From: Chloroflexota bacterium
GTDB taxonomy: Bacteria > Chloroflexota > Anaerolineae > B4-G1 > SLSP01
Direction of reading: 5' to 3'
Length of the DNA: 64,000 bases
Assembly: GCA_019873725.1 (NCBI GenBank)
Contig: JAIOAS010000002.1
Span: 1,012 to 65,011 of the forward strand
Position numbers and translations under genes: made by a program
The notes under the pieces: model-generated
Database searches by the model: none
Seen by the model: only the letters and a program-made list of their open reading frames with translations
Told to the model about the DNA's origin: nothing
Part shown: positions 3,941 through 17,493 of the stretch, in pieces
How the letters are laid out: every line of letters starts with the position of its first letter
How positions within the stretch are numbered: position 1 is the stretch's first letter

Positions 3941-3953
3941 CGAAGGAGGAACT

Positions 3954-5321
3954 ATGGAACGCATCAAGATTGTCATCGGCACAAAGGTATGGGACGACGT
4001 GCAGCGTCTGGAACGGGCGCTGTCCGAGATACCCGAAATGCAAATCGTCGCCGGGCCAACCACAGCTTCAGGGGTGTTTGCCGACGCCACCGAGATGGAG
4101 GCGGACATCGTACTTTTGTCGCCCACACTGCCAGGCTTTCGGCCAGAACTGGTGAGTGAACTGCTGCACTACGACGAGCGGCCCATTGCTTGCATTGGGC
4201 TGCTGCCCCCGCTGGAATCGCGCACTGACGAGTTACTGGCTCTGGGGATGAAAGGCCACGTCTCGTTGCCCCTCGACGACGCGCAGTTGCGGCGCTTGCT
4301 GGAACTGATCCCCAACGCCGTCACCCAGGCGCGCGCCGAACGGGCCAGCAGCAGCTACGTCGCCCTGGACACACCCACACTCTACACTCTGGCGGAGGCC
4401 GGGTGGCGACGCATGGTCATCGCCTTGTGGGGCACGGGCGGCGGCGTGGGCAAGACCAGCCTGGCGATCAACCTCGCGGCAGCCTTGGGCGTCATCGGCC
4501 AGCGCACTACCCTGTTGATGGACCTGGATATGACCCGCGGCGCAGTCGCGCCCCGCCTGGGCCTATCCCCGAAGGAAAACATCTACGGCCTGATCAATAC
4601 TTTACTGCTGGACTATCTGCGCACTCGGAATGCCAGTTGCCCGCCGCAGACGCTCCAGACGAAAGTGCAACTGTGGAACACCAGGCTGGCCTCGAAGCTG
4701 CACTGCCTGAGCGGTATCGCCTCAATGGAGGTCGCGGGCCGGGCAGAGTTCCGCGACGATCCGCACCGCACGCAGGCACTGACCCGCGCCATCATCGACA
4801 CCGCGCGCAAGCTCTATGACTTTGTGATCATCGACCTGGGGCCGGACATCAACAATGACGTGCATTTCGCCGCACTGGACGCCGCCGACCTGGTGCTGAC
4901 CGTGGTGCGGCCCGATGTGGCCGATATGCACTCCACCGGTCAGACTGTGCCGCGCCTGAAGCAGACCTTTGGCGAGGGCATCGGCAAGTTCGAGTTGGTC
5001 ATCAACCAGTGGAGCACCGAAACAGGTCTCAAGCTGAAGGACGTGATCAGCACCATTGGGATGAAGAAGTTCGCCCAAGTGCCCTACGATCCGCAGTTCA
5101 CCTACAGCAACAACCACCAGATGCCCTTCGTGCTGGAAAAGCCCAATCCCACGTCGGACGCGATTGTGTCAATGGCGGTGCGCTTTTACCCGCCGTTAGC
5201 GAACACCTGGGTTAGCCGTGGCGGGCAGATCGAAGGCGAGGCGGCAGCGTTCAAGCCACCGGAGCGTCGCAAAGAGCCGGGGCTGTGGCAGCAGGTGCAG
5301 AGTGTGTTCGTGGGGAAATGA
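3954..5321 (+). CDS. cpaE: Flp pilus assembly ATPase-like protein CpaE/TadZ
   Basis: Receiver-like N-domain (MERIKIVIGTKVWDD...IVLLSP) plus MinD/ParA domain with ALWGTGGGVGKTSLAINLAAAL. RBS gaaggaggaactATG. The upstream in-frame ORF start at 3882 lies inside a repeat element. Confidence 0.8.
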   Translation: MERIKIVIGTKVWDDVQRLERALSEIPEMQIVAGPTTASGVFADATEMEADIVLLSPTLPGFRPELVSELLHYDERPIACIGLLPPLESRTDELLALGMKGHVSLPLDDAQLRRLLELIPNAVTQARAERASSSYVALDTPTLYTLAEAGWRRMVIALWGTGGGVGKTSLAINLAAALGVIGQRTTLLMDLDMTRGAVAPRLGLSPKENIYGLINTLLLDYLRTRNASCPPQTLQTKVQLWNTRLASKLHCLSGIASMEVAGRAEFRDDPHRTQALTRAIIDTARKLYDFVIIDLGPDINNDVHFAALDAADLVLTVVRPDVADMHSTGQTVPRLKQTFGEGIGKFELVINQWSTETGLKLKDVISTIGMKKFAQVPYDPQFTYSNNHQMPFVLEKPNPTSDAIVSMAVRFYPPLANTWVSRGGQIEGEAAAFKPPERRKEPGLWQQVQSVFVGK

Positions 5322-5323
5322 AA

Positions 5324-5462
5324 CTGGTTGCTAGTTGCTGGTTGCTGGTTGCTGGTTGCTTGAAGCTCGATGCTCGATCCAGCAACGTGTAACCAGCAAC
5401 AAGTAACGAGTATCCAGTATCGAGTATCCAGTATCCAGCATCGAGCAACCAGCAACAAACAA
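5324..5462. repeat. tandem-heptamer inverted-repeat hairpin element (CTGGTTG / CCAGCAA family)
   Basis: ctggttgctagttgctggttgctggttgctggttgc...ccagcaacgtgtaaccagcaacaagtaacgagtatccagtatcgag. Confidence 0.65.
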
Positions 5463-5478
5463 CGAGGAGAGAGGAACA

Positions 5479-6279
5479 ATGAAAGAAAGCATCTTTTTGG
5501 AACGCGAAGTAGATCACGCGCGGCGCATTGGACTGTCGGAACGTCGGACCGGGATGTTGCGCCGGACGTTGGCGTTGAAACGGGAAGGATATACCCCCAG
5601 GCGCATCCGTGTCCAGATGTGCAAGGCCAACGTCACCTGGCGTGTGGCGCTGCGGACGCAGGAGGAGTTGGAACAGGAATTAGGCGTGGCGTGGGAAGGT
5701 GGGGTTTACGTCCCTGACAGTCCCGCTGTGCCCGCCGAGCAAGCGCAAGCCGTGGCCGAGGCCGGACGTGAACAGGCGCGGGGTAGCAACAAGCACCTCC
5801 GCGCCCAGTACGGTCTGCACAATGGCAGCACCGCGCCATACGGCTACGTTTTTGGCCCGGACATCACCATCAAGACCGCCGACGGGCAATCTTTGACCGG
5901 ACACAGCTTAGTCCCTGACCCAGATACAGCGGTTGTCGTAGCCGACATCTTCGCACAGTTCATCGGTGGGGCGTCGCCGTATACCATCGCCGCCGACCTG
6001 AACCGGCGCGGCATCGGCAGTCCCAACGGCGGACGCTGGGGCGAGGCCAACGTGCGCGACATCGTGCGCCGCGCGCCGCTGTACTCCGGGTACGTTGTCT
6101 ACCACGACGCGGCCCACAAGCAGGCGCGCTGGACGGGGATGCTGTACCCCGGCCAACACGAGGCCCTGATCGATTGGGAAACCACCCTGGCAGTCCTGGC
6201 TGTCACCGGACGCACATTGGAATGGACGTTTGGCCCGACACGGGAAGAAGCCACGCTTGCGACACCGGAGGTAGCCTGA
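5479..6279 (+). CDS. HTH + serine-recombinase 'Recombinase' domain protein lacking resolvase catalytic domain
   Basis: APYGYVFGPD...LVPDPDTAVVVADIFAQFIGGASPYTIAADLNRRGIGSPNGGRWGEANVRDIVRRAPLYSGYVVYH matches the Pfam Recombinase (PF07508) consensus. No S-Q-Y catalytic motif. N-terminal HTH-like RRIGLSERRTGMLRRTL. Confidence 0.55.
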   Translation: MKESIFLEREVDHARRIGLSERRTGMLRRTLALKREGYTPRRIRVQMCKANVTWRVALRTQEELEQELGVAWEGGVYVPDSPAVPAEQAQAVAEAGREQARGSNKHLRAQYGLHNGSTAPYGYVFGPDITIKTADGQSLTGHSLVPDPDTAVVVADIFAQFIGGASPYTIAADLNRRGIGSPNGGRWGEANVRDIVRRAPLYSGYVVYHDAAHKQARWTGMLYPGQHEALIDWETTLAVLAVTGRTLEWTFGPTREEATLATPEVA

Positions 6280-7616
6280 TGGCAGCGCCCTCGACCTTTG
6301 CCCAACGGGTCGCCGCGCACGCCACTGCGGAGTACCCCGATCCCTACACGGGCTTGCTCGCTGCTGCCCGTGACCGCCTGGCCGGACAGTTTAGCCTGGA
6401 AGCCTTGCGCACGCCCACTGCCCACGTCGAACGCGAGGCCGAGACGCTGCTGCGTTCCCTGGTCGAAGAACACGCGAATGCCGCGCTGCAACACGGCCGG
6501 CCCTTTACCGAGCCGCTGGAGGAGCTGGTCGCGCGCTTGCAGTACGACATCTTTGGCTACGGCGTCATCACCCCGTATCTGAATATGCCCACCGTCGAGG
6601 AAATTATGATCAACGGCCCGGACGTGATCTGGGTGGACGACGCCGAACGGGGAATGTACCGCGCCAGCGTGCGATTCGAGAGTCCGCGTGAGGTGCAGAA
6701 ACTCGTCGACCGCATCGCTGCGCGGCACGGACGGCGCTTCGACCGCTCCAACCCACGGGTCAACGCCAAGATGCCGGACGGCAGCCGCCTCAACGCCGTG
6801 ATGGAACCGCTGGTGGACAATGTGCCCGTCGCGGTGACGATCCGCCGCCACCGCCTGGTCGCCCGCACGCTGGATGACCTGGTGCGATTAGGGACGCTCA
6901 CTGCCGACATTGCGGGTTTCCTTAAGGAATGCGTGCTGGGCCGCCTCAACCTCATCGTCACTGGCGGCACGGGATCGGGCAAGACCAACACCCTCAACGC
7001 CCTGTGCGCCGTTCTCCCCCCGGAAGAACGGGTGGTCACCGTGGAAGATACCCCGGAACTCCAACTCGGTTTGGATAACTGGATTGCGATGGTCACCACG
7101 GAAGAAACTGAAGAAGGCCAACGTCCGATCACGCTGGACGACCTGGTGATCAACGCCTTGCGGATGCGCCCCGACCGCATCGTCACCGGTGAGGCGCGCG
7201 GGGCGGAGATTCGCTCCGTCCTGATGGCGGCTAACACCGGCCACGACGGGCAACTGCTGACCTTGCACTCCAATGGCGTCCACGAGATTGCCAACCGCGT
7301 GGTGCAGATGTGGCAACTGGCCGACTCAGCGATGGCCCCCGGCGTGATCACGCGTTATCTGGTCGATGCCTTCGACCTGGTGCTCTACATCGAGCGCGTC
7401 ACGGTCAACGGCCAACGCCGCCGCATCGTGCGCGAGGTCGCTGAGTTGCTGCCGTCGCGCCAGATGGAAGGTGACATCCCAGCGATCAATGTACTGTGGC
7501 AGGATACCGGCAATGGCTTGCAGTGGACGGGTCTGTATCCGCAGACGCTGGAAGAGAGCATCTACCTGCGCACCGGGCAACAGGTCAGCCTGCACCGCTA
7601 CTTCAAACGGGGGTGA
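6279..7616 (+). CDS. cpaF: Flp pilus assembly ATPase CpaF/TadA (VirB11-type secretion ATPase)
   Basis: LIVTGGTGSGKTNTLNAL Walker A, VTVEDTPELQL, RPDRIVTGEARG, and His box AANTGHDGQLLTLHSN. The ATG overlaps the previous stop (TGATGG). Confidence 0.9.
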   Translation: MAAPSTFAQRVAAHATAEYPDPYTGLLAAARDRLAGQFSLEALRTPTAHVEREAETLLRSLVEEHANAALQHGRPFTEPLEELVARLQYDIFGYGVITPYLNMPTVEEIMINGPDVIWVDDAERGMYRASVRFESPREVQKLVDRIAARHGRRFDRSNPRVNAKMPDGSRLNAVMEPLVDNVPVAVTIRRHRLVARTLDDLVRLGTLTADIAGFLKECVLGRLNLIVTGGTGSGKTNTLNALCAVLPPEERVVTVEDTPELQLGLDNWIAMVTTEETEEGQRPITLDDLVINALRMRPDRIVTGEARGAEIRSVLMAANTGHDGQLLTLHSNGVHEIANRVVQMWQLADSAMAPGVITRYLVDAFDLVLYIERVTVNGQRRRIVREVAELLPSRQMEGDIPAINVLWQDTGNGLQWTGLYPQTLEESIYLRTGQQVSLHRYFKRG

Positions 7617-7621
7617 GGACG

Positions 7622-7750
7622 ATGCGTTTTCTATGGGGAACACAAGCTGAAGCCGAGGTCAGTATGGTGCTGGTCGTTGGGCTGGTTCTGGTCTGCCTCG
7701 TAGTATTTGTGGCGTGTGCCGCGATGGGCGCGCCGCTGGGAGCTGTGTAG
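7622..7750 (+). CDS. small hydrophobic protein (42 aa), possible Flp-like or minor pilin
   Basis: MRFLWGTQAEAEVSMVLVVGLVLVCLVVFVACAAMGAPLGAV: a Gly followed by acidic residues and a ~22-aa hydrophobic helix. RBS ggtgaggac 6 nt upstream. Located between cpaF and cpaA. Confidence 0.3.
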   Translation: MRFLWGTQAEAEVSMVLVVGLVLVCLVVFVACAAMGAPLGAV

Positions 7751-8451
7751 TGAGTCAAGGGACAACCGCTGTCACACTCGTGCCCGCCCTGGTCGGCCTC
7801 TGGCTGGCTTGGTTGAGCTACGGCGATCGGCGGACACGCAACGTCCCGGCCTGGGCCACAGCCTTGCCCCTGGCAGTGTTGGGATTGCTGCGTGTTGTTG
7901 TAGTCCCACCGGATGGCGTGGTTGTACCTGGCGGCGCAGCGGTGGGGTTCGCCCTGCTGATGCTCTTGCTGTCCGACACGCCGTCCGCCATCTTCCCTGC
8001 CGGGGCCGCTGCGTTCTGCGCCGGACTCTCCGGGGAGCAGGCGCAAGTCCTGGTAGGCAGTTGGATCGCTGCGTTGGTGCTCGTTGACCTGAACATCTGG
8101 GGCGCAGGGGACGGCAAAGTGTTGGCCGTGTTGACGGCGCTGTATCCCGATGTGCGGGTACTGGTCGCAATGGGTATAGCTTTGCTCGCGGGCGGTGTGG
8201 TGACCTTGCTCCGGCACCGCCCACGCATTGGCGAACGCCGCACTTTCCCCGCCATCCCCTGGTTGGCAGTGGGAACAATGCTCTACCTGGTGTTGGTAGC
8301 GGTCAGCAATCAGCGTTCAGCTATCAGCTTCGGACTGCCAGCATCAAGCAACCAGCTTCCAGCATCCAATATTCAGCATTCACTCCCAAGTGCAAGGACT
8401 TCGGACTTTCGACTTTGGACTTGGGACTACTTTCAAGGAGGTTCACATTGA
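7750..8451 (+). CDS. cpaA: prepilin peptidase CpaA/TadV (A24 family)
   Basis: Polytopic membrane protein with LVDLNIWGAGDGKVLAVLTALYPD (the aspartyl peptidase DGK-type motif). GTG start at 7750 or ATG at 7714. The last ~48 aa are encoded by a repeat element and overlap the tadB start. Confidence 0.65.
   Translation: MSQGTTAVTLVPALVGLWLAWLSYGDRRTRNVPAWATALPLAVLGLLRVVVVPPDGVVVPGGAAVGFALLMLLLSDTPSAIFPAGAAAFCAGLSGEQAQVLVGSWIAALVLVDLNIWGAGDGKVLAVLTALYPDVRVLVAMGIALLAGGVVTLLRHRPRIGERRTFPAIPWLAVGTMLYLVLVAVSNQRSAISFGLPASSNQLPASNIQHSLPSARTSDFRLWTWDYFQGGSH
8301..8432. repeat. tandem-heptamer repeat element (CAGCNNT / CCAGC / GGACTT arms) encoding the cpaA C-terminal tail
   Basis: ggtcagcaatcagcgttcagctatcagcttcggactgccagcatcaagcaaccagcttccagcatcc...ggacttcggactttcgactttggacttgggac. 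Confidence 0.55.
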
Positions 8452-9332
8452 ATACACCGACTTTCCTTTTCGCCGCCCTGGCCGCCGCCGGGGTGCTCCT
8501 GGCCTGGATCGGGGCGACAACACGCGCTTACGTGCGCCTCGTACCCATCGATCAACGGGGAATACTCGCGCAGTTGAACACCCGCTTGCAGGCCGCTGAT
8601 ATTCCATTGTCCGCACGCGAGTTCCTGCTCACGGGTCTCGGGATCGGCGCGGTCTTGGCCGGGGGCGCGCTGGTCATCCTGGGGCCGACGGTTTTGGCCG
8701 CGGTCGTCATTTGCCTCGGTCCCGTCATCTATTGGCAGGCGTGGGCAGGCAAGCAGGAACGCTTCAAGCGCGAGTACGTCAACGCCCTCAGCCAGGCCAT
8801 CGAGACCTTGCTGCGGGCCTACAGCGCCAATCCCAACTTGACCGCCGCCTTGCAGGAGGCCACGCCCTATATGCGCGAACCGGTGCGTGGCGACTTCGTG
8901 CAGGTGGTCACATCCTTGCAGACCCGCGCGACGCTCAGCGACGCCCTCTACCAGGTGGCCGAACGGCGGCACAACCCGTACTTCGATATGCTGGCCGAGG
9001 CCCTCGTGGTGCGCGAGCAACAGGGCGGCAAACTCAAGACCGTCCTCGAAGGACTGCAAAGCCTGCTGCGTGGCGTGATCCAGATTCAGAACGAAGTCCG
9101 CGCCCGGCAAACACAGCCCAAACTGGAAGGCACGATTGTGGCCATTGCGCCGTTCGTTTTCCTCGCACTGCTCAAGCTGGCGTTGCGCGACTACGAGGGC
9201 GGCTTCTACGCCACGCTCGACGGGCAGATCGTGTTAGCCGTCGCCATTGTCTTCTCCGGGGTGGCTTATCTGCTCTCTCAGAAGATCGCCAAGGCCGGAC
9301 TTGACCTGGAAGCTCAGGGAGGTGCGCGATGA
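8448..9332 (+). CDS. tadB: Flp pilus assembly protein TadB (T2SS-F family)
   Basis: TTG start 7 nt after AAGGAGG. Membrane protein with T2SSF-like region (LSQAIETLLRAYSANPNLTAALQEATPYMREPVRGDF). Confidence 0.7.
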   Translation: MNTPTFLFAALAAAGVLLAWIGATTRAYVRLVPIDQRGILAQLNTRLQAADIPLSAREFLLTGLGIGAVLAGGALVILGPTVLAAVVICLGPVIYWQAWAGKQERFKREYVNALSQAIETLLRAYSANPNLTAALQEATPYMREPVRGDFVQVVTSLQTRATLSDALYQVAERRHNPYFDMLAEALVVREQQGGKLKTVLEGLQSLLRGVIQIQNEVRARQTQPKLEGTIVAIAPFVFLALLKLALRDYEGGFYATLDGQIVLAVAIVFSGVAYLLSQKIAKAGLDLEAQGGAR

Positions 9333-10237
9333 CGTACAGTCTGTGGTTCGCTTTCCTGGGTGGTCTGGGGACGTTCCTGGCGCTCAACGCCGGGCAACGC
9401 CGCGCCCCACGTACTTTGCGCGTGCGCCTGGGACTGGAACAGGTGCAAGCGCGGCGGCCCCTGGTAGATCGCTTGTTTGGCACGTGGGCGGAGAGCCTGT
9501 TACAGCGACGCGACGCCACCGACGTGGAAACGCGGCTCAAGCAAGCGGGGTTCTGGCAACGGGTCGGGGCGCTGTATCCCGATGTGCGCACCTTCTACGC
9601 CTACAAGGTCGCCAGCGCCACGCTGTTGGCCGTGCTGGGCTTGGGCGCAGGGCTGATCCTGGCGTCTCTGGGCGGTTTCAGTCCTGCGACGGGCCTGGCT
9701 GTCGCTGCGGCGACTGGTGCGCTGGGCTACTTCTTGCCGGATATGGACTTGAAGGGCAAGGTCTCGCGGCGCGACGACCAGATGCTCGCCGATATGGCTT
9801 CAGCGTTGGATCGCCTGGCGAACTTCCTGGCGGCGGGGTATCCCCTGGCGCAGGCGGTGCAGCAGTTGGCGGAGCGCCCCGGTGGGGTGTTCGTGGCCGA
9901 ACTGCGGCCTGTCGCGGCGCACTACAACGTCAGCGGCGATCTGGCGGCGGGGGTGGAAGCCTTGTTGGAAAACAACGGCAACCTGCCGCCGCTGATCCCG
10001 TTCGTGACGCTGCTGCGCACGACGGCGCGGTTGGGCGGCGGCGTGAGTGAACAGTTACGCGATTTGGCCGCAGAGCTACGGACGGAGTTGACCCAGCGCA
10101 TCACAGCGCGGGGCTACCGCAACACGGTCTTGATGATCGTCCCGGCCTTCTTCGCCATCCTCGCCACGCTGCTGGTCTTGGCCGCGCCCGGCGCGTTACG
10201 CGCCTTTGCCAGCCTGGGGACGGGCGGCTTTCTGTAA
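9329..10237 (+). CDS. tadC: Flp pilus assembly protein TadC (T2SS-F family)
   Basis: Overlapping start (ATGA). Membrane protein with T2SSF-like region (LDRLANFLAAGYPLAQAVQQLAERPGGVFVAEL). Confidence 0.7.
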   Translation: MTYSLWFAFLGGLGTFLALNAGQRRAPRTLRVRLGLEQVQARRPLVDRLFGTWAESLLQRRDATDVETRLKQAGFWQRVGALYPDVRTFYAYKVASATLLAVLGLGAGLILASLGGFSPATGLAVAAATGALGYFLPDMDLKGKVSRRDDQMLADMASALDRLANFLAAGYPLAQAVQQLAERPGGVFVAELRPVAAHYNVSGDLAAGVEALLENNGNLPPLIPFVTLLRTTARLGGGVSEQLRDLAAELRTELTQRITARGYRNTVLMIVPAFFAILATLLVLAAPGALRAFASLGTGGFL

Positions 10238-10264
10238 TAGCCGTTACGCGCCTGGCCGTTTTCT

Positions 10265-10346
10265 GACAGGATTAACAGGATTTTCAGGATTGGCAAAGGC
10301 TTTATGAGGTCTTTTTTCATCCTGTTCATCCTGGCAATCCTGTCCA
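10265..10346. repeat. CAGGATT-family inverted tandem repeat; paralog at 60713-60784
   Basis: gacaggattaacaggattttcaggatt ... catcctgttcatcctggcaatcctgtcc. The left arm is the exact reverse complement of the arm at 60758-60784. Confidence 0.7.
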
Positions 10347-10502
10347 AAGAAAGGAGGTGATGCCTATTGAATGACGACAACTAACCCATAACGGTCCCGC
10401 ACCTTACCGGGGGCGCAGTGCGTTCCACTGCGTCCCCACTTAACCGAAGCCATTCATAGTTCAGCCAAATCAGTTTCAGGCAGAAGGAGGAGAGATAAGC
10501 CT

Positions 10503-10787
10503 ATGAACATCGTGCAACGCACTCAAGATACAGTCACCCTGACCTATCTGCGGGTCAGCCAGCGTCTCGCGGCGCATCCCATCGCGCGACGGCTCAGCGC
10601 CTTGCAGCAGGGACGGGTCAAGCAGGCTTTGGCCTGCGAAGAGGGACAAGGCTTGCTGGAGTACATCATCGGCATCGCCGGGGTCTTTGTCGTCGCCGCT
10701 GCGGTGTTGGCGCTGTACCGCGCCATCCGCGGCAAGTACGGCGAAGCGACCAACAGCGTCAATTCGCTGACCATCACCGCGCCCTAA
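10503..10787 (+). CDS. flp: Flp family type IVb pilin (long leader)
   Basis: EEGQGLLEYIIGIAGVFVVAAAVLAL matches the G/XXXXEY Flp processing motif and is followed by a hydrophobic helix. Strong RBS aggagg. Unusually long ~47-aa leader. Confidence 0.7.
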   Translation: MNIVQRTQDTVTLTYLRVSQRLAAHPIARRLSALQQGRVKQALACEEGQGLLEYIIGIAGVFVVAAAVLALYRAIRGKYGEATNSVNSLTITAP

Positions 10788-10862
10788 GGCGTGCGCCGGG
10801 GAAGGCCCGTGCGCCGCCCTGGTGGACGCGCGGTCTTCCCCGGCCTGAAAGGAGTCACACAG

Positions 10863-11279
10863 ATGAACCAAGTGACACAACATCAAAAAGAGCAAGGCCA
10901 GGCCCTCATCGAGATGCTGTTGGTCTTGCCGGTCTTTCTGTTCCTGACCGGGGCGATCATCGGCATCGGCTGGGCCTACTGGGTGCGCCTGAATCACGTC
11001 GCCTATGCCCAGGATGCGACCACGATGGCGGGCAAAGCCAACGCCGTGGATGCGGGCCAGGCGTGGGCCGCGCGTTTTATCCAAGGGTCCAACGTGGACT
11101 TCGGGGCGCAGACGACGGTTGCGCCGTTGACGCTGCAACGCGGCGTCCAGGCCACGGCCCGGTACCAGGCCCCGGCGCTACTGCTGTGGGACTTAGCCGC
11201 ACCGGAAGTCACCGCCGGGGCGTTCACCCGCTGGGAGCAGTTCTACCCCGGCCCACCCGCGCCGGGCGCTTTTGAATGA
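10863..11279 (+). CDS. tadE: TadE-like pseudopilin
   Basis: HQKEQGQALIEMLLVLPVFLFLTGAIIGIG matches the TadE/TadG N-terminal motif. Confidence 0.7.
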   Translation: MNQVTQHQKEQGQALIEMLLVLPVFLFLTGAIIGIGWAYWVRLNHVAYAQDATTMAGKANAVDAGQAWAARFIQGSNVDFGAQTTVAPLTLQRGVQATARYQAPALLLWDLAAPEVTAGAFTRWEQFYPGPPAPGAFE

Positions 11280-11317
11280 CGGTGACACATACATCACAAG
11301 GAAAGGATAAATACACA

Positions 11318-13903
11318 ATGCGAAAGAAACGAATCTTGACCCTCGCTCTACTGGGCATTCTCATCATTTCCAACGTCGTGCGCGCCGTGGCTGCCCCGGC
11401 TGCACCGACTGCGCCATCGCGCCTCTTGACCTACCAGGGGCACCTACTGGACACAACAGGCTTGCCGGTGGCCGACGGTGCATACTCGATGGCCTTCAGC
11501 CTGTGGGACGCCGCGACAGACGGCGCACAGCTTTGGGGACCCGAAGCGCATACCGTGACCGTCACGGACGGCTACTTTGCGCTGCTCTTGGGCACGGAGA
11601 TACCCCTCGACGCGGCACACTTCACCGACGACACCTACCTGGAGATCGCGGTGAGCGGCGAGACGCTCACCTCCCGCCAGCCGTTGGGCGCTGTAGCGTA
11701 TGCGCTGGGTGCATCCCAGGCCGAGCACGCTGTCACTGCCGATGATGCGGCGCTGTTGGGCGGGGCCGCACCGGAGGTCTACCACGACTGGCGCAATCTC
11801 ACCCACGTCCCAGACGGCTTTGCCGATGGCCTCGACAATGACACGCTCTACACCGACGACGATGCGCTGTCAGCCGTGCAAGCTGCCGGGTATCTCACCG
11901 CCACCGGCGTCATCGAGGTGTTGAGCACCACGCACACGCTGACCGTCACCGTGGCCCACGCCCTGACCGCGAATGACGCGGAGACCCTCAACGGGCAGGC
12001 CGGGGACTACTACCTGGACTGGCGCAACTTCAACCATATCCCGGACGATTTTGCTGACGGTGTGGACAACGACACGACCTACAGCGCCGGTTTTGGTCTA
12101 GCACTGGAAGACGCCACCTTCAGCGTCATCGGCGCACCGTGGTCAGGCTTGGTCGGCATCCCGGCGGGCTTTGCTGACGGCGTGGACAACGACACAGTTT
12201 ACACCGATGAAGACGCACTATTGGCTGTGGAAGCCGCCGGATATGTCACCTCAAGCGAGGTCATCTCCGTGGTCAACCAGGCCGGCTATGTGACCGACGT
12301 GCAAGTGCTGGCCCTCATCACCAACACCACGTCACACACTTCGACGTATGCCTTTACTGCTGGAGATGCCGCGACCCTCAATGGACACGCCTGGGACTAC
12401 TACCTGGACTGGCGCAACTTCACGCACGTGCCTGACGATTTCACTGATGGCGTAGACAACGACACGACCTATACTGCCGGTTCTGGGCTGCGCCTGGACG
12501 GAACGATGTTTAGCGTCACCGGCGCACCGTGGTCAGGACTGACGGGCGTGCCTACCGGGTTTGCCGACGGGGTGGACAATGACACGACCTACGCGGCAAG
12601 CACTGGAATCACCCTGAGCGGGACACAGTTCAGTGTCGCTGTACCATATCGCTTGCCGCAAAGCTGCACCAGCGGGCAGATCGCTGAATGGAACGGGACG
12701 ACCTGGGTATGTGCTTCGGACAACGACAGCGGCGGCGACATCACCGCGGTCACCGCAGGGACAGGACTGACCGGCGGTGGCACAACGGGCAGCGTTGCTC
12801 TCGCCGCCGACACCGCTTATCTACAACGCCGCGTCAGCAGCACGTGCGCGGTGGGCAGCAGTATCCGCGCCATTAACGCCGACGGCACGGTGCTCTGCGA
12901 GGCCGACGACAATACCACCTACACTGCTGGGGATGGTCTGGCCCTGATCGGCACGCAGTTCAGCCTGTCCACACCCTATCAACTTCCCCAAACATGCGCC
13001 AACGGCCAAATGCCACAATGGAATGGCGCGGTGTGGGACTGCGGTAGTCCAGTTGTCCCTGGCTACGCTCGCACCCTGGTCGTCGCTGCGAGTGGCGGGG
13101 ACTTCATCAGCGTCCAGGCCGCCGTGAACAGCATCACCGACGCCAGTGCGACGAACCCGTACCTTGTCTGGATCGCGCCCGGTGTGTATGCCGAGACGGT
13201 GACGCTCAAGCCCTATGTCCACTTGCAAGGCGCGGGGCGCGATGTCACCGTGCTGCAAGGCAACATCACCGACGACGATGGTAGTCCAACGGACAAAGCG
13301 ACGCTGATCCTGGACAACAATACCAGCGTGCGTGACCTGTCGGTGAATAACAGCGGCAGCGAGGGGCAAACCCGCGTGGGGATCCTCGTGCCAATGGGAA
13401 AAAGCAATGTGCGCGTGGTCGATGTCAACGTGAGCAGTGGAGGCACAGCGCGCAGCAGTTTCGCGCTCTGGATCGCCGGACGCGCCACGCTGGAAAATGT
13501 CACCGCCACGGCCAGCGGGGGGACGGTCATCAACGCCGCCATGATGGTCAAGGCGCAGTCTGCGTATCCGCCGTTTCCCGCGGAAGCGACGCTCTACGAT
13601 GGCGTGTACACGGCCAGCGGAACGAACGCGATGGGCATCAAGGTGGAGAACCTCGACAGCCGCATGGTCGTCAATGCTGCTTACATCTCCGCTACCGAGG
13701 CGCTATACAGTGATGGCTGGATCGAGGTCTACCACAGCCGCCTGGAAGCGCCCACCCACGTGGTGGTCAACACACAAGCCAGCCAACCGCAGCGCGCGCT
13801 GGTCAAGTACACCGAGTTTGTGGGCGCGGGGGGCATCTTCAACACCATCACCTGTGTAGCCGTGAGTCGCGGTGCGACCTTCGGGGCGACGACGTGTCCG
13901 TAA
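11318..13903 (+). CDS. large secreted repeat protein with C-terminal right-handed beta-helix (pectin-lyase-fold) domain; candidate adhesin
   Basis: Signal peptide MRKKRILTLALLGILIISNVVRAVAA. About six copies of DWRN[LF]THVPD[GD]F[AT]DG[LV]DNDT[LT]YT. C-terminal VVAASGGDFISVQAAVNSI...GVYAETVTLKPYVHLQGAG beta-helix signature. Confidence 0.6.
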   Translation: MRKKRILTLALLGILIISNVVRAVAAPAAPTAPSRLLTYQGHLLDTTGLPVADGAYSMAFSLWDAATDGAQLWGPEAHTVTVTDGYFALLLGTEIPLDAAHFTDDTYLEIAVSGETLTSRQPLGAVAYALGASQAEHAVTADDAALLGGAAPEVYHDWRNLTHVPDGFADGLDNDTLYTDDDALSAVQAAGYLTATGVIEVLSTTHTLTVTVAHALTANDAETLNGQAGDYYLDWRNFNHIPDDFADGVDNDTTYSAGFGLALEDATFSVIGAPWSGLVGIPAGFADGVDNDTVYTDEDALLAVEAAGYVTSSEVISVVNQAGYVTDVQVLALITNTTSHTSTYAFTAGDAATLNGHAWDYYLDWRNFTHVPDDFTDGVDNDTTYTAGSGLRLDGTMFSVTGAPWSGLTGVPTGFADGVDNDTTYAASTGITLSGTQFSVAVPYRLPQSCTSGQIAEWNGTTWVCASDNDSGGDITAVTAGTGLTGGGTTGSVALAADTAYLQRRVSSTCAVGSSIRAINADGTVLCEADDNTTYTAGDGLALIGTQFSLSTPYQLPQTCANGQMPQWNGAVWDCGSPVVPGYARTLVVAASGGDFISVQAAVNSITDASATNPYLVWIAPGVYAETVTLKPYVHLQGAGRDVTVLQGNITDDDGSPTDKATLILDNNTSVRDLSVNNSGSEGQTRVGILVPMGKSNVRVVDVNVSSGGTARSSFALWIAGRATLENVTATASGGTVINAAMMVKAQSAYPPFPAEATLYDGVYTASGTNAMGIKVENLDSRMVVNAAYISATEALYSDGWIEVYHSRLEAPTHVVVNTQASQPQRALVKYTEFVGAGGIFNTITCVAVSRGATFGATTCP

Positions 13904-13912
13904 AGGAGGTCA

Positions 13913-15280
13913 ATGATGCGACATACACTGTTACTCCTGCTCCTGCTGAGCTGCTTGCTCGCTGCCCCTGTAGCAGCGCAAGCCCCCGGTCTGCAGCGCG
14001 TCACGGCGGACACGGCCAACGCCGTCGCCGGTGGCACGCTGACCAACGGGAACTACACGCTGCACGGCACGCTGGGCCAGACCAGCGTCGCCACCTCGCG
14101 GGGCACGACCGCCACCCTGACCGGCGGTATCTGGTCCGGCATCAACGCCGCTGAGGTGTTGGTGCTCGAAAAGACCTACCGCGACGTCACCCCCGCACGT
14201 ACCGAAGTCGGGGAGACACTGACCTTCATCGTCGCCGTGACCAACAACGGGGTGCGCCCGCAGGCTAACATCGTGGTCAGTGACACGCTACCGGTGGGCT
14301 TGACCTTGCTACCGCAGAGTGTTACGGCGGACAAGGGTACGGTCACGGCAAGTGACAACGCGCTCACGCTACACCTGGCGACGTTGAGCTACGAGGAAAT
14401 TGCGGTGCTCACCTATCGCGCCACGGTGGATGTGGGGACGGAGGGGCAAACACTGGTCAACACGGCGGTCGCGCAGAGCGATACTTATGGGCCGGTTAGC
14501 GAGTCGGCCAGTGTATCCGTATATCGTCCGACCCGCATCTTCCTGCCGTTGGTGATGCGCGGCTATCCCCCTACGCCGCCCGTAGTGCAGGTTGCGGATG
14601 CGCCGGGAACGTGTCCGGGCTTGAGCATTGCGCTGGACATCTTCTACCGCGAGGACTTCGACGGGGAGAACGACAACGACTGCTTTGCCTTCACTGCCGT
14701 CGCCGGGCAGACCTATGTGCTGGAAACGGGCGACCTGGGAGCACAGGCCGATACCCTACTGACCTTGTATGCCGCGACGGACTGTGGGACACCCCTGGCG
14801 GAGAACGACGACATCAACTACCCCCACGACGTGGCCTCGCGCATTGTCTGGACGGCTCCGGCAAACGGTGTCTACAGCGTCCTGGTGCGCAGCTACGACT
14901 GGCGCGTCTATGGGTCGGGCACGGAGTACACGTTCCGGGTAACGCGCAGCAATGGAGTTACGCCGCAGAGCGCACCGCCGTCCACTGACAAGCCCGTGCC
15001 ACCGCCTACACCGATGCCCGACACCGACGCCCGTGTTTCACGGCGCGTACCAGGTTTAGCCGCGCCCCTCGCCGAGAAGCCGACCCCGCCGCCTACGCCG
15101 GTCAAGCCGCCGGTTGCCCCGACGCCCACCGGTCTAGCGACGCCGGAGGCCACTCCGGTAGTGACACAGATCGTGTTGTTGCCGGAAACGGGTTACGCGG
15201 GACGACTCAGTGGAGCCGGTCTGGTGTTGGCTTTGCTGGGTGCTGGTGCGCTGTGGCGTGTGCGGAGGTCCGTAGCGTGA
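13913..15280 (+). CDS. LPXTG-anchored surface protein with DUF11-like repeat and PPC (pre-peptidase C-terminal) domain
   Basis: Signal peptide. DFDGENDNDCFAF...YDWRVYGSGTEYTFRV (PPC). Pro-rich linker. C-terminal LPETG + hydrophobic segment + RVRRS (sortase sorting signal). Confidence 0.65.
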   Translation: MMRHTLLLLLLLSCLLAAPVAAQAPGLQRVTADTANAVAGGTLTNGNYTLHGTLGQTSVATSRGTTATLTGGIWSGINAAEVLVLEKTYRDVTPARTEVGETLTFIVAVTNNGVRPQANIVVSDTLPVGLTLLPQSVTADKGTVTASDNALTLHLATLSYEEIAVLTYRATVDVGTEGQTLVNTAVAQSDTYGPVSESASVSVYRPTRIFLPLVMRGYPPTPPVVQVADAPGTCPGLSIALDIFYREDFDGENDNDCFAFTAVAGQTYVLETGDLGAQADTLLTLYAATDCGTPLAENDDINYPHDVASRIVWTAPANGVYSVLVRSYDWRVYGSGTEYTFRVTRSNGVTPQSAPPSTDKPVPPPTPMPDTDARVSRRVPGLAAPLAEKPTPPPTPVKPPVAPTPTGLATPEATPVVTQIVLLPETGYAGRLSGAGLVLALLGAGALWRVRRSVA

Positions 15281-16581
15281 TGCGCCGTTTCGCCGCGCTG
15301 CTCTTGCTGGGGTTGGTGGTGTGGGCCGTGCCGGTAGCGGCGCAGAAGCCCACGCCGCCACCCACGCCCGCGCCGGTCGTGGAACCGTCCGCTGCACCGA
15401 CCAAAGCGCCGGAACCGCCGACGCCCACGCCGGAGCCGCTGCCCACCGCGACGCCGGAAGCCTTGCTACCGACAGCGACAGCCGTGTGGCCTACGGCGAC
15501 GGCTACGACGGTGGAAACGACAGCGACACTGGATGTGCCCACGGCGACTGCCACTTTGCCTCGTCCTACCGCGACGCACGCGGTGACGCCTACAGTGGTA
15601 GTCACGGCGACGCTAGATGTCGCGCCAAGCACTGCATCCACGGCCACACCCGGCCAATGGCCGACGTTGCCGGGCTGGGTGTGGCCGGTGGTCGCCGGTA
15701 TTGGTGTGCTCATTCTGTGGCTTATCGTGCGCTTCGTGGGCTACACGCGGCAAGACCTGGCGATGAAGCGGCGGATGATCGCCGAGGATACGGCGGCGCG
15801 CGTCGCCGCCCACCGTCGTGATGTGGCGGCGCAGTTGCAGGAGACCGATGCCTGGCGGCACTTGCTCGGTCAGATCGCTACCGATGCGTTGGGCCAACCG
15901 GTGCGCATCGTCGGGGACACCTTGCCGTACATCAACGCCGACGACCTGGCCTTTACCGCGCTGGATGATCAGGGCGTGAGCTACTGCTTCACCGTGACCC
16001 CGCACAAGTTACCAGGCCAGGTCTACCGGCTGGACAACCCGGAAACCCAGGCTGAAGTCTCCGCTGTGTGGCACTATCTGGCAGCGCAGCGGCTACAGGG
16101 TGCGCTCCCCGCCGTCCCGCGCCAGGCGACGTGGATCCTGGTCGTGCAACGGCCCAGTTCCCCGCTACTGCGCCGCCGCACTAACCGGCGCTGGTGGCTA
16201 GGTGTAGCGTTGGGCGTCCTCTTGCTGATCGCGGCGAGTACCCTGGTCGGGGCGCGGTTGGTGCGAGCACACCTGGCGACGCCGACGCCTGCCGTAGCTG
16301 CCGTCACCCTGGTCAACGAAACGGGTGAGACGGTGAGTTTGTGGACACTGGAAAACGAACCAGTGTGCGTGGTCTGCCCTGAGGCGGCACTGTCGCCACA
16401 AGAGAGTCGTGTCTTGGACGTCACCCCTGGCCCCGTGCTCTGGGAAGTCGTCCGCGCGCCCTTCGGCGACTTCTACACCGCTTACCGCCTTGCCCTGGTC
16501 GAGACCTACGTCGCACCAGGGACCACCGCGCGGGATACGGTAATCACCCTATCCAAAATGCCATTCACCAATGGGAGGTGA
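15280..16581 (+). CDS. Pro/Thr-rich secreted protein with single TM helix and cytoplasmic C-domain
   Basis: Signal peptide MRRFAALLLLGLVVWAVPVAAQ, PTPPPTPAP... low-complexity region, TM WVWPVVAGIGVLILWLIV. The ATG overlaps the previous stop. Confidence 0.5.
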   Translation: MRRFAALLLLGLVVWAVPVAAQKPTPPPTPAPVVEPSAAPTKAPEPPTPTPEPLPTATPEALLPTATAVWPTATATTVETTATLDVPTATATLPRPTATHAVTPTVVVTATLDVAPSTASTATPGQWPTLPGWVWPVVAGIGVLILWLIVRFVGYTRQDLAMKRRMIAEDTAARVAAHRRDVAAQLQETDAWRHLLGQIATDALGQPVRIVGDTLPYINADDLAFTALDDQGVSYCFTVTPHKLPGQVYRLDNPETQAEVSAVWHYLAAQRLQGALPAVPRQATWILVVQRPSSPLLRRRTNRRWWLGVALGVLLLIAASTLVGARLVRAHLATPTPAVAAVTLVNETGETVSLWTLENEPVCVVCPEAALSPQESRVLDVTPGPVLWEVVRAPFGDFYTAYRLALVETYVAPGTTARDTVITLSKMPFTNGR

Positions 16582-16585
16582 AACG

Positions 16586-17032
16586 ATGCAAATTCGTAAC
16601 TCGCAACTCGCAACTCAGCCCGAACAAGGCCAGGCCCTCATCGAAATGCTCATCGCCTTGCCGCTGCTGCTCCTGATCCTGGCCGCGGTCATCGGCTTCG
16701 GGCGGGTGCTCTTTGTCGCCCTCGCCGTTGACCAGGCCGCCTTCACCGGTGGACGCTACGCCGCCGAGAGCCTGAATCCCTACCAGGCCGCGTACCAGGC
16801 CTACCGCGCCACGGCAATGAACCTGACCGCTAACGGGATCGACGCTGCGCCGATGGCCTGGCAACTCGACGCCGCCGGCTGGCAGCGTGGCGGGACGGTG
16901 ACCAACTACGCCGGCGTCGCCGTGCCCGTCAATGACATCCCGCTGGCCCCGCTGCTCTTCGGCAGCGACCGCGTGACGCTCTGGCAGGGTGCGACGTTCC
17001 GCATCGAAAGGTGGAAGTCGAAATGGCAGTGA
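16586..17032 (+). CDS. TadE/TadG-like pseudopilin
   Basis: QPEQGQALIEMLIALPLLLLILAAVIG. RBS gggaggtgaaacgATG. Confidence 0.7.
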   Translation: MQIRNSQLATQPEQGQALIEMLIALPLLLLILAAVIGFGRVLFVALAVDQAAFTGGRYAAESLNPYQAAYQAYRATAMNLTANGIDAAPMAWQLDAAGWQRGGTVTNYAGVAVPVNDIPLAPLLFGSDRVTLWQGATFRIERWKSKWQ

Positions 17033-17493
17033 GGACAGGGAGTAGGAAGTATGGAGTAGGGAGTAAGGGACGCTGGCGCGGCCCTGATGAACAGGGGCAA
17101 GTGCTGGTTTGGGTACTGGTGTTGCTCCCATTGCTCCTGCTGATGGCGGCGCTGCTCATCGAGGGTGGCCTGATGTACCGCACGTACCGGCTGGCGCAGA
17201 TGGCCGCCGATGCAGCGGCGCACGCCGCCGCCCAGGAACTGGACGTGGCCTTGTACATGCGTACCGGGCGCGTGGCGTTGACGCCCAATGCGGCGACCGT
17301 GGCGCGGACCATCGCCGCGACCAACACCCGCGGACTGGTGGCCTGCGGCGTCCCGCACGTATGGGCCAACCGTGTGGAACTCGTCTGTCAAGCGGACTTA
17401 CACCCTGTCGTGCTCATCGGCGGTCCCACGGTTCACGTCAGTGTGCGTGGCCGCGCCCGACCCGCCTGGGGTGCAACGGTGGAATACGAGTGA
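17023..17493 (+). CDS. tadG: TadG-like (Tad_N domain) pilus assembly protein
   Basis: DEQGQVLVWVLVLLPLLLLMAALLIEGGLMYRTYRLAQMAADAAAHAAAQE is Tad_N-like. Confidence 0.6.
   Translation: MAVRTGSRKYGVGSKGRWRGPDEQGQVLVWVLVLLPLLLLMAALLIEGGLMYRTYRLAQMAADAAAHAAAQELDVALYMRTGRVALTPNAATVARTIAATNTRGLVACGVPHVWANRVELVCQADLHPVVLIGGPTVHVSVRGRARPAWGATVEYE

What the first reader, a model, noticed from the sequence alone, without database searches (positions are those of the whole stretch)
13913..15280. LPXTG sortase substrate with PPC domain inside the tad locus; shared R-[IV]-[FY]-L-P-L-V-[MC]-R motif with the giant metalloprotease
The protein ends in LPETG + hydrophobic segment + RVRRS, so it is predicted to be covalently wall-anchored. 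No sortase is present in the window.
- Internally it contains PTRIFLPLVMRGYP.
- The 1,477-aa metalloprotease (25134-29564) ends with LRVYLPLVCRNR.
- An almost identical 8-mer in two unrelated secreted proteins suggests a conserved processing or sorting recognition site. It could be a propeptide junction or a novel C-terminal sorting motif.
- The flanking beta-helix repeat protein and Pro/Thr-rich membrane protein suggest a pilus-associated adhesin set.
Basis: seen in the sequence. Interest (0 to 1): 0.55.

Follow-up and report, generated by a model that had tools for sequence, protein, structure and literature searches.

The report
YLP-box sorting tag in Anaerolineae proteins
The short peptide shared by the two secreted proteins is a real tag found on many exported Chloroflexota proteins, usually at the very C-terminus; NCBI already lists it as the "YLP-box putative sorting motif", and nobody knows what reads it.

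Summary
ORF 13913-15280 (+) has a signal peptide, an N-terminal module, a CLIPPER/DUF11 domain, RIFLPLVMRGY, a PPC domain, a Pro-rich stalk and LPETG+TM+RVRRS. The HEMGH metalloprotease lies on the minus strand (25134-29564) and ends RVYLPLVCRNR*.

The match is not chance. 102 of these are Chloroflexota (Anaerolineae, Thermoflexia, Ardenticatenales, Caldilineales). In that DNA plus the window the relaxed motif occurs 131 times, against 1-2 for permuted controls. 21 of 24 boxes found beyond the probe lie within 9 residues of the stop. 81% of carrier ORFs have signal-peptide-like N-termini. Codons vary synonymously, and carriers are otherwise unrelated.

The motif is not new. NCBIfam holds two tiny models, NF050076 and NF053834 "ultrashort_CTERM", both named "YLP-box putative sorting motif". 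Both window segments pass the second model's cutoff. I found no paper on it.

The protease carries a typical C-terminal box. The LPXTG protein carries an unusual, family-conserved internal box in a linker that AlphaFold models with low confidence.

The mechanism is unknown. My best guess is a tag read after export, for surface retention or docking. The LPXTG reading is plausible but unproven, and the tad linkage holds only in close relatives.

The parts
13913..15280 (+). Gene for the 455-aa exported protein that carries an internal YLP-box and a C-terminal LPETG tail
   Evidence: ORF. 58 homologues in Anaerolineae-type MAGs. AF2 model.
13913..13984 (+). Signal peptide (aa 1-24, MMRHTLLLLLLLSCLLAAPVAAQA)
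   Evidence: Read directly from the sequence. It passes the signal-peptide heuristic.
13985..14143 (+). N-terminal ~55-aa module (…YTLHGTLGQTS…LTGGIWSG). It is homologous to small secreted Chloroflexota proteins in which the YLP-box follows the module directly.
   Evidence: hhalign gives 98.4% probability, E 4e-15. BLASTP gives 4e-5. The AF2 confidence here is low.
14159..14521 (+). CLIPPER (formerly DUF11) CnaA-like stalk domain, aa 83-203
   Evidence: PF01345 scores 53.3 bits against a cutoff of 24.6. TIGR01451 scores 42.6 bits. AF2 pLDDT is above 90. The domain is described in PMC12617251.
14537..14566 (+). Internal YLP-box, I209-F-L-P-L-V-M-R-G-Y218, in a low-confidence (presumably flexible) linker
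   Evidence: L211 is nearly invariant (>=90%) and P212 invariant across 28 homologues; pLDDT below 50 for residues 210-218. NF053834 scores 13.6 against a cutoff of 10, and NF050076 scores 14.6 against 15.
14582..14950 (+). PPC (pre-peptidase C-terminal type) beta-sandwich domain, aa 224-346
   Evidence: PF04151 scores 26.9 bits against a cutoff of 25.9. AF2 models it with confidence.
14951..15178 (+). Pro/Thr-rich stalk modelled with low confidence, aa 347-422
   Evidence: Composition read from the sequence. AF2 confidence is low over most of it: pLDDT below 50 for residues 351-357, 370-388 and 405-433.
15179..15277 (+). LPETG, a hydrophobic helix and RVRRSVA: an LPXTG-type tripartite tail
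   Evidence: Conserved in orthologues. HMM scores are below the cutoffs.
25134..29564 (-). Gene for the 1476-aa exported HEMGH zinc metalloprotease-like protein (an alternative GTG start lies at 29606)
   Evidence: The exact protein is in the public collection on a 75,294-bp NCBI contig.
27222..27236 (-). HEMGH zinc-binding motif
25221..25508 (-). Ig-like 'choice-of-anchor D' type domain just before the tail
   Evidence: NF012200 scores 44.4 bits against a cutoff of 45. PF22544 scores 25.9 against 25.5.
25137..25166 (-). C-terminal YLP-box, V-Y-L-P-L-V-C-R-N-R followed by the stop (the typical position)
   Evidence: NF053834 scores 13.1 against a cutoff of 10. The orthologue P0177 ends RIYLPLILRGR*.
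11276..13903 (+). 875-aa fibre-like protein directly upstream. It is the conserved partner gene.
   Evidence: Homologues sit next to small YLP-box proteins in at least 10 loci. Some of them carry a Peptidase_S74 chaperone domain.
15253..16581 (+). 442-aa Pro/Thr-rich membrane protein directly downstream. No family match.
   Evidence: The position is conserved in L122/L123.
3882..11279 (+). Upstream half of the tad locus: TadZ-like, CpaF, A24 peptidase, TadB, TadC, TadE-like
   Evidence: Pfam results.
16571..17493 (+). Downstream TadE-like and TadG-like pseudopilin genes
   Evidence: Pfam results.

Best explanation
Both peptides are instances of the Chloroflexota 'YLP-box', consensus x-[YH]-[RK]-[IV]-Y-L-P-L-V-[LM]-R-N-Y, usually followed by 0-3 residues and the stop.

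**Shown here**
- The box is a protein-level motif of Sec-exported proteins that are otherwise unrelated.
- It is largely confined to Anaerolineae-type Chloroflexota.
- It normally sits at the extreme C-terminus, in the slot where homologues from other lineages carry other anchoring modules.
- It has no transmembrane helix and no basic cluster.
- The metalloprotease has the typical terminal box.
- The 455-aa protein is an elaborated member of a small-protein family (signal peptide + ~55-aa module + YLP-box). A CLIPPER stalk domain now lies before the box. A PPC domain, a Pro-rich stalk and an LPXTG-type tail lie after it. The box therefore sits in a linker modelled with low confidence, which I read as exposed.

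**Inferred**
- After export, a lineage-specific partner not yet identified reads the exposed peptide as a short linear motif.
- I think the most likely outcome, about 40%, is retention or docking of the protein at the cell surface (wall, S-layer or sheath). This would resemble a receptor-read tag such as dockerin or PTS1/KDEL, not a membrane-coupled sortase or exosortase reaction.
- Proteolytic processing at the box and covalent modification are the main alternatives.
- In the 455-aa protein the LPXTG-type tail would supply covalent wall attachment by a sortase encoded elsewhere. The box would then serve a second, different role.
For: **Recurrence and lineage**
102 have Chloroflexota titles.

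**Position**
- 59 of 98 probe-matched boxes lie within 9 residues of the stop.
- 21 of 24 boxes found beyond the probe do so too.

**Specificity**
- 131 hits against 1-2 for permuted motifs.

**Selection acts on the protein**
- All codon positions vary synonymously.
- The unprobed -1 position is I/V/L in 115 of 126 boxes.

**Export**
- 52 of 64 carrier ORFs have signal-peptide-like N-termini, against 115 of 504 other ORFs.

**Curated models**
- NF050076 and NF053834 match both window segments.

**Exposed linker**
- pLDDT is below 50 for residues 210-218, between two confident domains.

**Conservation in the family**
- The box is kept down to about 36-40% identity. P212 is invariant and L211 nearly so.

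**Anchor slot**
- The box follows a choice-of-anchor D type domain. Other carriers have choice-of-anchor X or T domains.
- The 30%-identical protease homologue P0209 ends in dockerin repeats instead.
- The orthologue P0177 keeps the box.

**Position tolerance**
- Boxes also occur right after signal peptides (L050, L062, L074) and before CARDB-like, PPC, CBM-like or LTD modules.

**Relation to small YLP-tailed proteins**
- hhalign gives 98.4% probability.
- The upstream fibre gene is conserved.
Against: - No partner, receptor or enzyme was identified. Neighbour clustering across about 100 loci found no recurrent candidate.
- There are no experimental data, and no paper on the motif in the searchable corpus.
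- The survey loci were chosen by the motif itself. Only the 24 extra boxes and the flanking positions are unbiased.
- NF050076 is narrowly missed: 13.9 and 14.6 against a cutoff of 15. In full-length scoring the 455-aa protein reaches only 10.6 bits and the protease is not reported. Perfect-consensus carriers are also lost in that mode, so it says little.
- A box directly before PPC domains, which Pfam describes as removed from mature peptidases, fits a cleavage site as well as it fits docking.
- The box in the 455-aa family has F for Y and G for N.
Confidence: 0.6

Rival explanations
1. The box is a proteolytic maturation site (propeptide junction). A secreted or surface protease cuts at or next to it. 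This trims a few residues in most proteins. In the minority with internal boxes it releases the downstream PPC, CARDB-like or other modules. In the 455-aa protein the cut would free the N-terminal module and CLIPPER half from the wall-anchored PPC-stalk half.
For: - Internal boxes sit exactly at domain borders in low-confidence or Pro-rich linkers.
- Several precede PPC domains (P0050, P0053-55, L109). By Pfam's family description, PPC domains are absent from mature peptidases.
- Tandem boxes occur at some C-termini (L002, L027, L116).
Against: - Most boxes are 0-3 residues from the stop, so cutting there would remove almost nothing.
- Boxes directly after the signal peptide (L050, L062, L074) would only remove a 10-40 residue stub.
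- No co-located protease was found.
Confidence: 0.22
2. The box is a true covalent sorting signal or a modification site. An unknown extracytoplasmic transpeptidase, ligase or glycosyltransferase recognises it. The enzyme then attaches the protein to a wall or sheath polymer or a lipid, or modifies the invariant Tyr or Arg/Asn.
For: - The box meets six of Haft's eight attributes of small C-terminal sorting signals: near the C-terminus, several per genome, invariant residues, signal peptides, unrelated carriers, and homologues with other anchors.
- NCBI names it a putative sorting motif.
- Glycosyltransferase, sugar-transferase and sortase genes lie beside YLP-box genes in L119.
- A GT-C-like membrane protein lies next to carriers in L006, L112 and L115.
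Against: - The box has no transmembrane segment and no basic cluster. These hold all characterised substrates at the membrane enzyme (attributes 4 and 5).
- N-terminal and internal positions are hard to reconcile with a reaction that releases the C-terminus.
- The neighbouring enzymes occur in only one or a few orthologous loci.
Confidence: 0.15
3. The similarity is chance, a DNA-level repeat, or merely the edge of a neighbouring domain, with no signalling role.
For: - The pairwise BLASTP E-value for the 13-residue match alone is only 0.051.
- The motif is short and hydrophobic.
Against: - 131 hits against 1-2 for the controls.
- Strong restriction to one lineage.
- Clustering at the C-terminus.
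- Synonymous codon variation.
- The box follows unrelated domains: beta-helix 'DIGADE' ends, choice-of-anchor D/X/T, CLIPPER and the small module.
- AF2 places it outside both flanking domains.
- Curated HMMs exist.
Confidence: 0.03

Closest known systems
NCBIfam NF050076 (sort_motif_YLP) and NF053834 (ultrashort_CTERM): 'YLP-box putative sorting motif-containing protein'
   Same: - The consensus is the same (…[IV]YLPLVxRNY).
- The lineage is the same.
- The carriers are secreted proteins.
- Both window segments align to positions 2-11 or 2-10 of these models. Both pass the NF053834 cutoff.
   Different: - Both fall just short of the NF050076 cutoff.
- The 455-aa protein carries the box internally, has F/G in place of Y/N, and also has an LPXTG-type tail.
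- The family is defined by computation only. No function has been tested.
Tripartite C-terminal sorting signals (LPXTG/sortase, PEP-CTERM/exosortase, PGF-CTERM, GlyGly-CTERM, MYXO-CTERM), as defined by Haft (bioRxiv 10.1101/2023.06.07.544157)
   Same: - C-terminal position.
- Many unrelated signal-peptide proteins per genome.
- An invariant signature.
- The same slot after 'choice-of-anchor' domains.
- Homologues that carry other anchors.
   Different: - No transmembrane helix and no Arg cluster.
- 10 residues instead of 20-40.
- It tolerates N-terminal and internal positions.
- No cognate enzyme is known.
Dockerin-cohesin and other non-covalent surface-docking modules
   Same: - It is a terminal add-on to diverse exoenzymes.
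- A homologue of this very protease (P0209) carries dockerin repeats where this one has the YLP-box.
   Different: - A dockerin is a folded ~70-residue Ca-binding domain with a known receptor.
- The YLP-box is a 10-residue peptide with no known receptor.
Receptor-read C-terminal peptide tags of eukaryotes (PTS1 -SKL, KDEL), cited from general knowledge
   Same: - An ultrashort C-terminal peptide without a membrane segment.
- It is attached to many unrelated cargo proteins.
   Different: - The compartment and lineage differ.
- The analogy is only functional and is untested.
- The YLP-box also works, or at least persists, away from the C-terminus.
CLIPPER/DUF11-containing fibrillar adhesins (PMC12617251)
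   Same: - The layout is signal peptide, N-terminal module, CLIPPER stalk domain and C-terminal sorting signal.
- The match to PF01345 is strong.
   Different: - There is only one CLIPPER domain and the protein is short (455 aa).
- It carries an extra PPC domain and the YLP-box.
- Isopeptide-bond residues were not examined.

Membership tests
YLP-box putative sorting motif (NCBIfam) | Score at or above the NF053834 (ultrashort_CTERM) cutoff of 10 bits | tested here: met
   On excised segments the protease tail scores 13.1 and the 455-aa protein's box 13.6. The homologue P0041 scores 14.3 as a full-length protein. In full-length mode HMMER's filters lose even perfect-consensus carriers (L008, L030), so absence there says nothing.
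YLP-box putative sorting motif (NCBIfam) | Score at or above the NF050076 (sort_motif_YLP) cutoff of 15 bits | tested here: not met
   13.9 (protease) and 14.6 (455-aa protein) on segments. 10.6 for the full-length 455-aa protein. Canonical tails score 15.5-16.3.
YLP-box putative sorting motif (NCBIfam) | Core residues [IV]-[YF]-L-P-L-[VIL]-x-[RK] | tested here: met
   The window has RIFLPLVMR and RVYLPLVCR. The logo from 126 boxes is.
YLP-box putative sorting motif (NCBIfam) | Carrier is an exported protein of Chloroflexota | tested here: met
   Both proteins have signal-peptide-like N-termini. One of the 58 homologues (P0037) carries the source name 'Anaerolineae bacterium'; most carry no name. 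102 of 119 motif loci are Chloroflexota.
YLP-box putative sorting motif (NCBIfam) | Location at the extreme C-terminus | tested here: inconclusive
   Met for the protease, where 2 residues follow the core R. Not met for the 455-aa protein, where 239 residues follow. About a third of the probe-matched boxes are likewise internal.
Classical tripartite C-terminal sorting signal (Haft attributes) | Near the C-terminus, multiple per genome, at least 3 invariant residues, signal peptide, unrelated carriers, homologues with other anchors | tested here: met
   Several MAGs contribute 3-4 loci each. The attributes are listed.
Classical tripartite C-terminal sorting signal (Haft attributes) | Hydrophobic transmembrane segment after the signature | tested here: not met
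   The stop follows 0-3 residues after RNY in most carriers. The protease ends ...LPLVCRNR*.
Classical tripartite C-terminal sorting signal (Haft attributes) | Cluster of 2-5 basic residues at the end | tested here: not met
   There is a single conserved Arg.
Classical tripartite C-terminal sorting signal (Haft attributes) | Cognate sorting enzyme co-distributed with the signal | not testable with these tools
   This needs whole-genome phylogenetic profiling. Clustering of neighbouring genes found nothing recurrent.
LPXTG sortase substrate (tail of the 455-aa protein) | LPXTG pentapeptide, hydrophobic helix, basic tail and N-terminal signal peptide | tested here: met
   LPETG-YAGRLSGAGLVLALLGAGALW-RVRRSVA. 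Conserved in orthologues with LP[ETIAD]TG.
LPXTG sortase substrate (tail of the 455-aa protein) | Curated HMM cutoffs (TIGR01167 15.9 bits; PF00746 20 bits) | tested here: not met
   13.3 and 12.2 bits.
LPXTG sortase substrate (tail of the 455-aa protein) | A sortase encoded in the same genome | not testable with these tools
   None in the 64 kb. A sortase (PF04203, 1e-35) lies near YLP-box genes, and near a fibre protein ending in LPASG, in Ca. Thermoflexus japonica L119.
CLIPPER/DUF11 (PF01345) and PPC (PF04151) domains | Pfam gathering scores | tested here: met
   53.3 against 24.6, and 26.9 against 25.9. AF2 models both domains with confidence.
Choice-of-anchor D domain (NF012200) | Cutoff of 45 bits | tested here: not met
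   44.4 bits, 0.6 below the cutoff. The related PF22544 passes, 25.9 against 25.5. 11,067 library proteins match this region at E<=0.001; among the best 150, the C-terminal tails vary and include PEP-CTERM-type and TM-plus-basic tails.
Tad/Flp pilus accessory protein | Conserved placement inside a tad locus | tested here: inconclusive
   The synteny is the same in the 75%-identical L122/L123. The 50%-identical L120 has no tad genes within 10 kb. Loci of the small-protein relatives show no tad hits.

The most novel reading that the evidence does not exclude
The YLP-box may be the handle of a surface-display system mechanistically unlike every characterised prokaryotic sorting pathway. It would be a 10-residue tag with no membrane segment that tolerates different positions. 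An extracellular receptor or enzyme specific to Anaerolineae-type Chloroflexota would read it. On this reading the 455-aa protein, with its LPXTG tail and internal box, together with its fibre-like partner, belongs to the display or docking apparatus and is not mere cargo.
Probability: 0.3. Interest if true: 0.75.

Novelty: new member of a known kind. Interest (0 to 1): 0.45.

Why it matters
**Why the question is open**
- Anaerolineae-type Chloroflexota are abundant in sludge, sediments and hot springs.
- Their envelope is poorly understood.
- They export large numbers of enzymes and adhesins.

**What the tag offers**
- The tag marks dozens of exported proteins per genome, yet it has no membrane segment. 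It therefore cannot work like sortase or exosortase signals, and it points to an uncharacterised way of handling surface proteins.
- The motif is catalogued but unstudied. No paper was found in the searchable corpus.
- The question 'what reads the YLP-box?' can be tested directly. The tag could also serve as a simple marker for predicting the Chloroflexota surface proteome, and possibly as a display tag.

**What this window adds**
- It holds one typical member.
- It also holds one informative exception: a conserved internal box in a protein that also has an LPXTG-type tail. This argues that the box is not simply an alternative wall anchor.

Tried and rejected
**Searches that failed or found little**
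I used a degenerate DNA pattern on genome contigs instead.
- Literature searches for the peptide strings, 'YLP-box' and Chloroflexota sorting signals found nothing relevant.
- The protease C-terminal 160 aa against 1.84 billion representatives returned mostly multi-repeat Ig-like proteins of other phyla. Only one true orthologue, P0177, was found.
- A word-indexed search with the last 700 aa gave only 2 hits.
- Exact look-up of the window proteins' contigs failed.
- A PDB sequence search found no relatives.

**The search for a reader or enzyme**
- All-against-all clustering of 1,822 ORFs from about 100 loci gave only the fibre-like partner and generic ABC, kinase and regulator genes.

**Leads judged too weak to use**
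- The PamT (CPR pilus tip pilin) similarity of the N-terminal module is far below the cutoff: 26.6 and 13.3 bits against 240. I treat it as a lead only.
- I considered an Asn-specific (legumain or C25-type) cleavage at R-N-Y by the neighbouring C25-like protein. That protein has no signal peptide, and Asn is not kept in the 455-aa family (RGY).
- I considered an N-glycosylation sequon (N-Y-S/T). Most boxes end at RNY*, so this does not fit.
Full report
**1. The observation**

The ORF at 13913-15280 (+) encodes 455 aa. It contains YRPTRIFLPLVMRGYPP and ends LPETG, a 21-residue hydrophobic stretch and RVRRSVA.

The large protein ends GYSPLRVYLPLVCRNR* and carries HEMGH. It lies on the minus strand, 25134-29564 from its ATG.

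In the six-frame translation of the window the pattern [FYILVM]LP[LIVM][LIVM].[RK] occurs in these two ORFs only. BLASTP of the two proteins finds nothing in common except the 13 residues around the motif.

**2. Anatomy of the 455-aa protein**

- Pfam finds DUF11, now renamed CLIPPER, at aa 91-196. CLIPPER is a CnaA-like stalk domain of fibrillar adhesins (PMC12617251). Pfam also finds PPC at aa 254-327.
- An AlphaFold2 model built on 28 homologues gives two confident beta-sandwich domains, 83-203 and 224-346. The motif (210-218) falls between them at pLDDT below 50. I read this as an exposed linker, not part of either fold.
- Across homologues down to about 36-40% identity the motif is kept at this junction. 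P212 is invariant and L211 nearly so.
- It is also kept in proteins with other architectures, such as P0053 and P0055.
- The LPXTG-type tail is kept in most full-length orthologues (LPETG, LPTTG, LPITG, LPATG, LPDTG).

**3. Is the motif more than chance?**

I scanned one genome from each of 185,579 species for the degenerate DNA pattern of YLPLVxRNY. I calculated about 70 chance matches for the whole collection. The 17 others look like chance. They lack the I/V at position -1 and mostly sit mid-ORF or in very short ORFs.

Results in the Chloroflexota loci plus the window (750 kb):

| Test | Result |
|---|---|
| Relaxed motif [FYW]LP[LIVMF][LIVMATF].[RK] | 131 hits |
| Three permuted versions of the motif | 1-2 hits each |
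| Boxes not matching my probe, within 9 residues of the stop | 21 of 24 |
| Probe-matched boxes, within 9 residues of the stop | 59 of 98 |
| Probe-matched boxes, more than 60 residues before the stop | 34 of 98 |
| Unprobed position -1 is I, V or L | 115 of 126 |
| Complete carrier ORFs with signal-peptide-like N-termini | 52 of 64 |
| Other long ORFs with signal-peptide-like N-termini | 115 of 504 |

Every codon of the box varies synonymously, so selection acts on the peptide and not on a DNA repeat. Many MAGs contribute several loci each.

**4. It is already catalogued**

NCBIfam holds two very short models:

- NF050076 sort_motif_YLP: 11 positions, cutoff 15 bits.
- NF053834 ultrashort_CTERM: 10 positions, cutoff 10 bits.

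Both are described as 'YLP-box putative sorting motif-containing protein'. Scores on excised segments:

| Segment | NF053834 (cutoff 10) | NF050076 (cutoff 15) |
|---|---|---|
| Protease tail | 13.1 | 13.9 |
| Box of the 455-aa protein | 13.6 | 14.6 |
| Canonical tails | 11.2-15.1 | 14.4-16.3 |

In full-length mode the tiny models are mostly lost to HMMER's filters. This happens even for perfect-consensus carriers, so their absence says nothing.

No paper in the searchable corpus mentions the motif. It is therefore known as a curated computational entity with no tested function.

**5. How it compares with classical sorting signals**

Haft lists eight attributes of small C-terminal sorting signals.

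The YLP-box meets six:
- C-terminal position.
- Multiple copies per genome.
- Invariant signature residues.
- Signal peptides on the carriers.
- Carriers that are otherwise unrelated.
- Homologues with other anchors.

On the last point, the box follows a choice-of-anchor D type domain here, and choice-of-anchor X or T domains in other carriers. The orthologue P0177 keeps the box (RIYLPLILRGR*). The 30%-identical homologue P0209 ends in dockerin repeats instead.

It fails two: there is no transmembrane helix and no basic cluster. It therefore cannot be held at a membrane-embedded sortase or exosortase-type enzyme in the usual way.

**6. Position tolerance**

Boxes also occur elsewhere:
- 10-40 residues after a signal peptide: L050, L062, the S8 protease in L074, and two boxes in L049.
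- In tandem at C-termini: L002, L027, L116.
- At domain borders followed by CARDB-like, PPC, CBM-like or lamin-tail modules.

This favours an exposed short linear motif read by a partner over a reaction that needs a free C-terminal stub. Because several internal boxes precede PPC domains, a processing site remains a serious rival.

**7. What the gene is**

The first ~77 residues of the 455-aa family are homologous to small secreted Chloroflexota proteins of 90-135 aa. These consist of a signal peptide, the module (...Y.L.GT.GQ...Y.L.GGFWGG) and then directly the YLP-box and the stop. hhalign gives 98.4% probability, E 4e-15.

In at least 10 loci these small genes lie directly downstream of a homologue of the window's 875-aa fibre-like protein. 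Some of those homologues carry a Peptidase_S74 intramolecular chaperone domain.

The window gene is therefore an elaborated family member. A CLIPPER domain has been inserted before the box. A PPC domain, a stalk and an LPXTG-type tail have been added after it.

The tad-locus placement is real here and in a 75%-identical relative. It is absent in a 50%-identical one. The fibre/YLP gene pair is the conserved unit, not the tad linkage.

**8. LPXTG**

The tail has all three parts and is conserved. It scores under the curated cutoffs. No sortase lies in the 64 kb.

Sortases do exist in the lineage. In Ca. Thermoflexus japonica (L119) a sortase (PF04203, 1e-35) lies a few genes from two YLP-box genes, and from a fibre protein that ends LPASG + TM + RRRK.

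The co-occurrence of an LPXTG-type tail and a conserved YLP-box in one protein argues that the two signals are not redundant.

**9. Verdict**

The motif is not new, because NCBI has models for it. Its mechanism is unknown.

My probability estimates:

| Reading | Probability |
|---|---|
| Tag read after export, for surface retention or docking | about 40% |
| Cleavage site | about 22% |
| Covalent sorting or modification | about 15% |
| Chance or artefact | about 3% |

The identity of both peptides as YLP-boxes is about 90% certain.

Noticed in passing
window 11276-13903 and 13913-15280; L046, L048, L066, L073, L086, L087, L095, L102, L107, L119: A fibre-like protein is followed by a small secreted 'GGFW module + YLP-box' protein, and this gene pair is conserved across Chloroflexota. 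Some fibre copies carry a Peptidase_S74 chaperone domain. The small module weakly resembles the N-terminus of the CPR pilus tip pilin PamT (NF058579, 26.6 bits against a cutoff of 240). The CPR pam operon paper also reports a co-localised tail-fibre-like gene.
   Followed up: partly
L022, L045, L053, L083, L088, L091, L094, L100, L101, L108 (C-terminal ~170-180 aa after an internal YLP-box): A recurrent CARDB-like extension begins 'xxxPDLVV' and ends in a second ultrashort C-terminal motif, (H/D/A)LPxRP*. In four of these loci (L083, L091, L101, L108) the next gene encodes a small secreted protein whose mature N-terminus starts LPPRP. That protein has a 'WQELWTVVQWQD...VEGWRGTLD' domain. The same domain replaces the LPXTG tail in the homologues P0042 and P0043.
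   Followed up: partly
L119 (Ca. Thermoflexus japonica BEHY01000012) 119-7243: A sortase (Pfam 1e-35), a GT2 glycosyltransferase and a sugar transferase lie next to two YLP-box genes. A fibre protein in the same locus ends LPASG + TM + RRRK.
   Followed up: partly
P0209 (924-aa partial homologue of the metalloprotease): It ends in type-I dockerin repeats where the window protein has its YLP-box. Its source organism was not determined.
   Followed up: no
window 20958-24963 and 29863-35998: The protease is flanked by a CHAT + FGE-sulfatase fusion (minus strand) and a C25-like peptidase homologue without a signal peptide. Beyond it lie a PLD/SNF2 helicase and a Schlafen/AbiEii-type ATPase. This looks like a defence-type gene island unrelated to the tad locus.
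   Followed up: no
window 5479-6279; L122/L123 1-581: An ORF with a 'Recombinase' (PF07508) match sits just upstream of the CpaF ATPase gene. It is kept in the same place in the 75%-identical relative, so it may be a tad-locus component and not a mobile-element remnant.
   Followed up: no
L006:1686-3839, L112:2643-4367, L115:1287-3479: A large multi-pass membrane protein with a weak PIG-U / GT-C-like match (E 8e-5, below the cutoff) lies next to YLP-box proteins. The three loci appear orthologous.
   Followed up: no
L071 (title 'Patescibacteria group bacterium'): This locus carries a convincing internal YLP-box (…LVYLPLVARNYEGP…) in a 605-aa ORF. The contig may be mis-binned, or the motif may occur outside Chloroflexota.
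   Followed up: no
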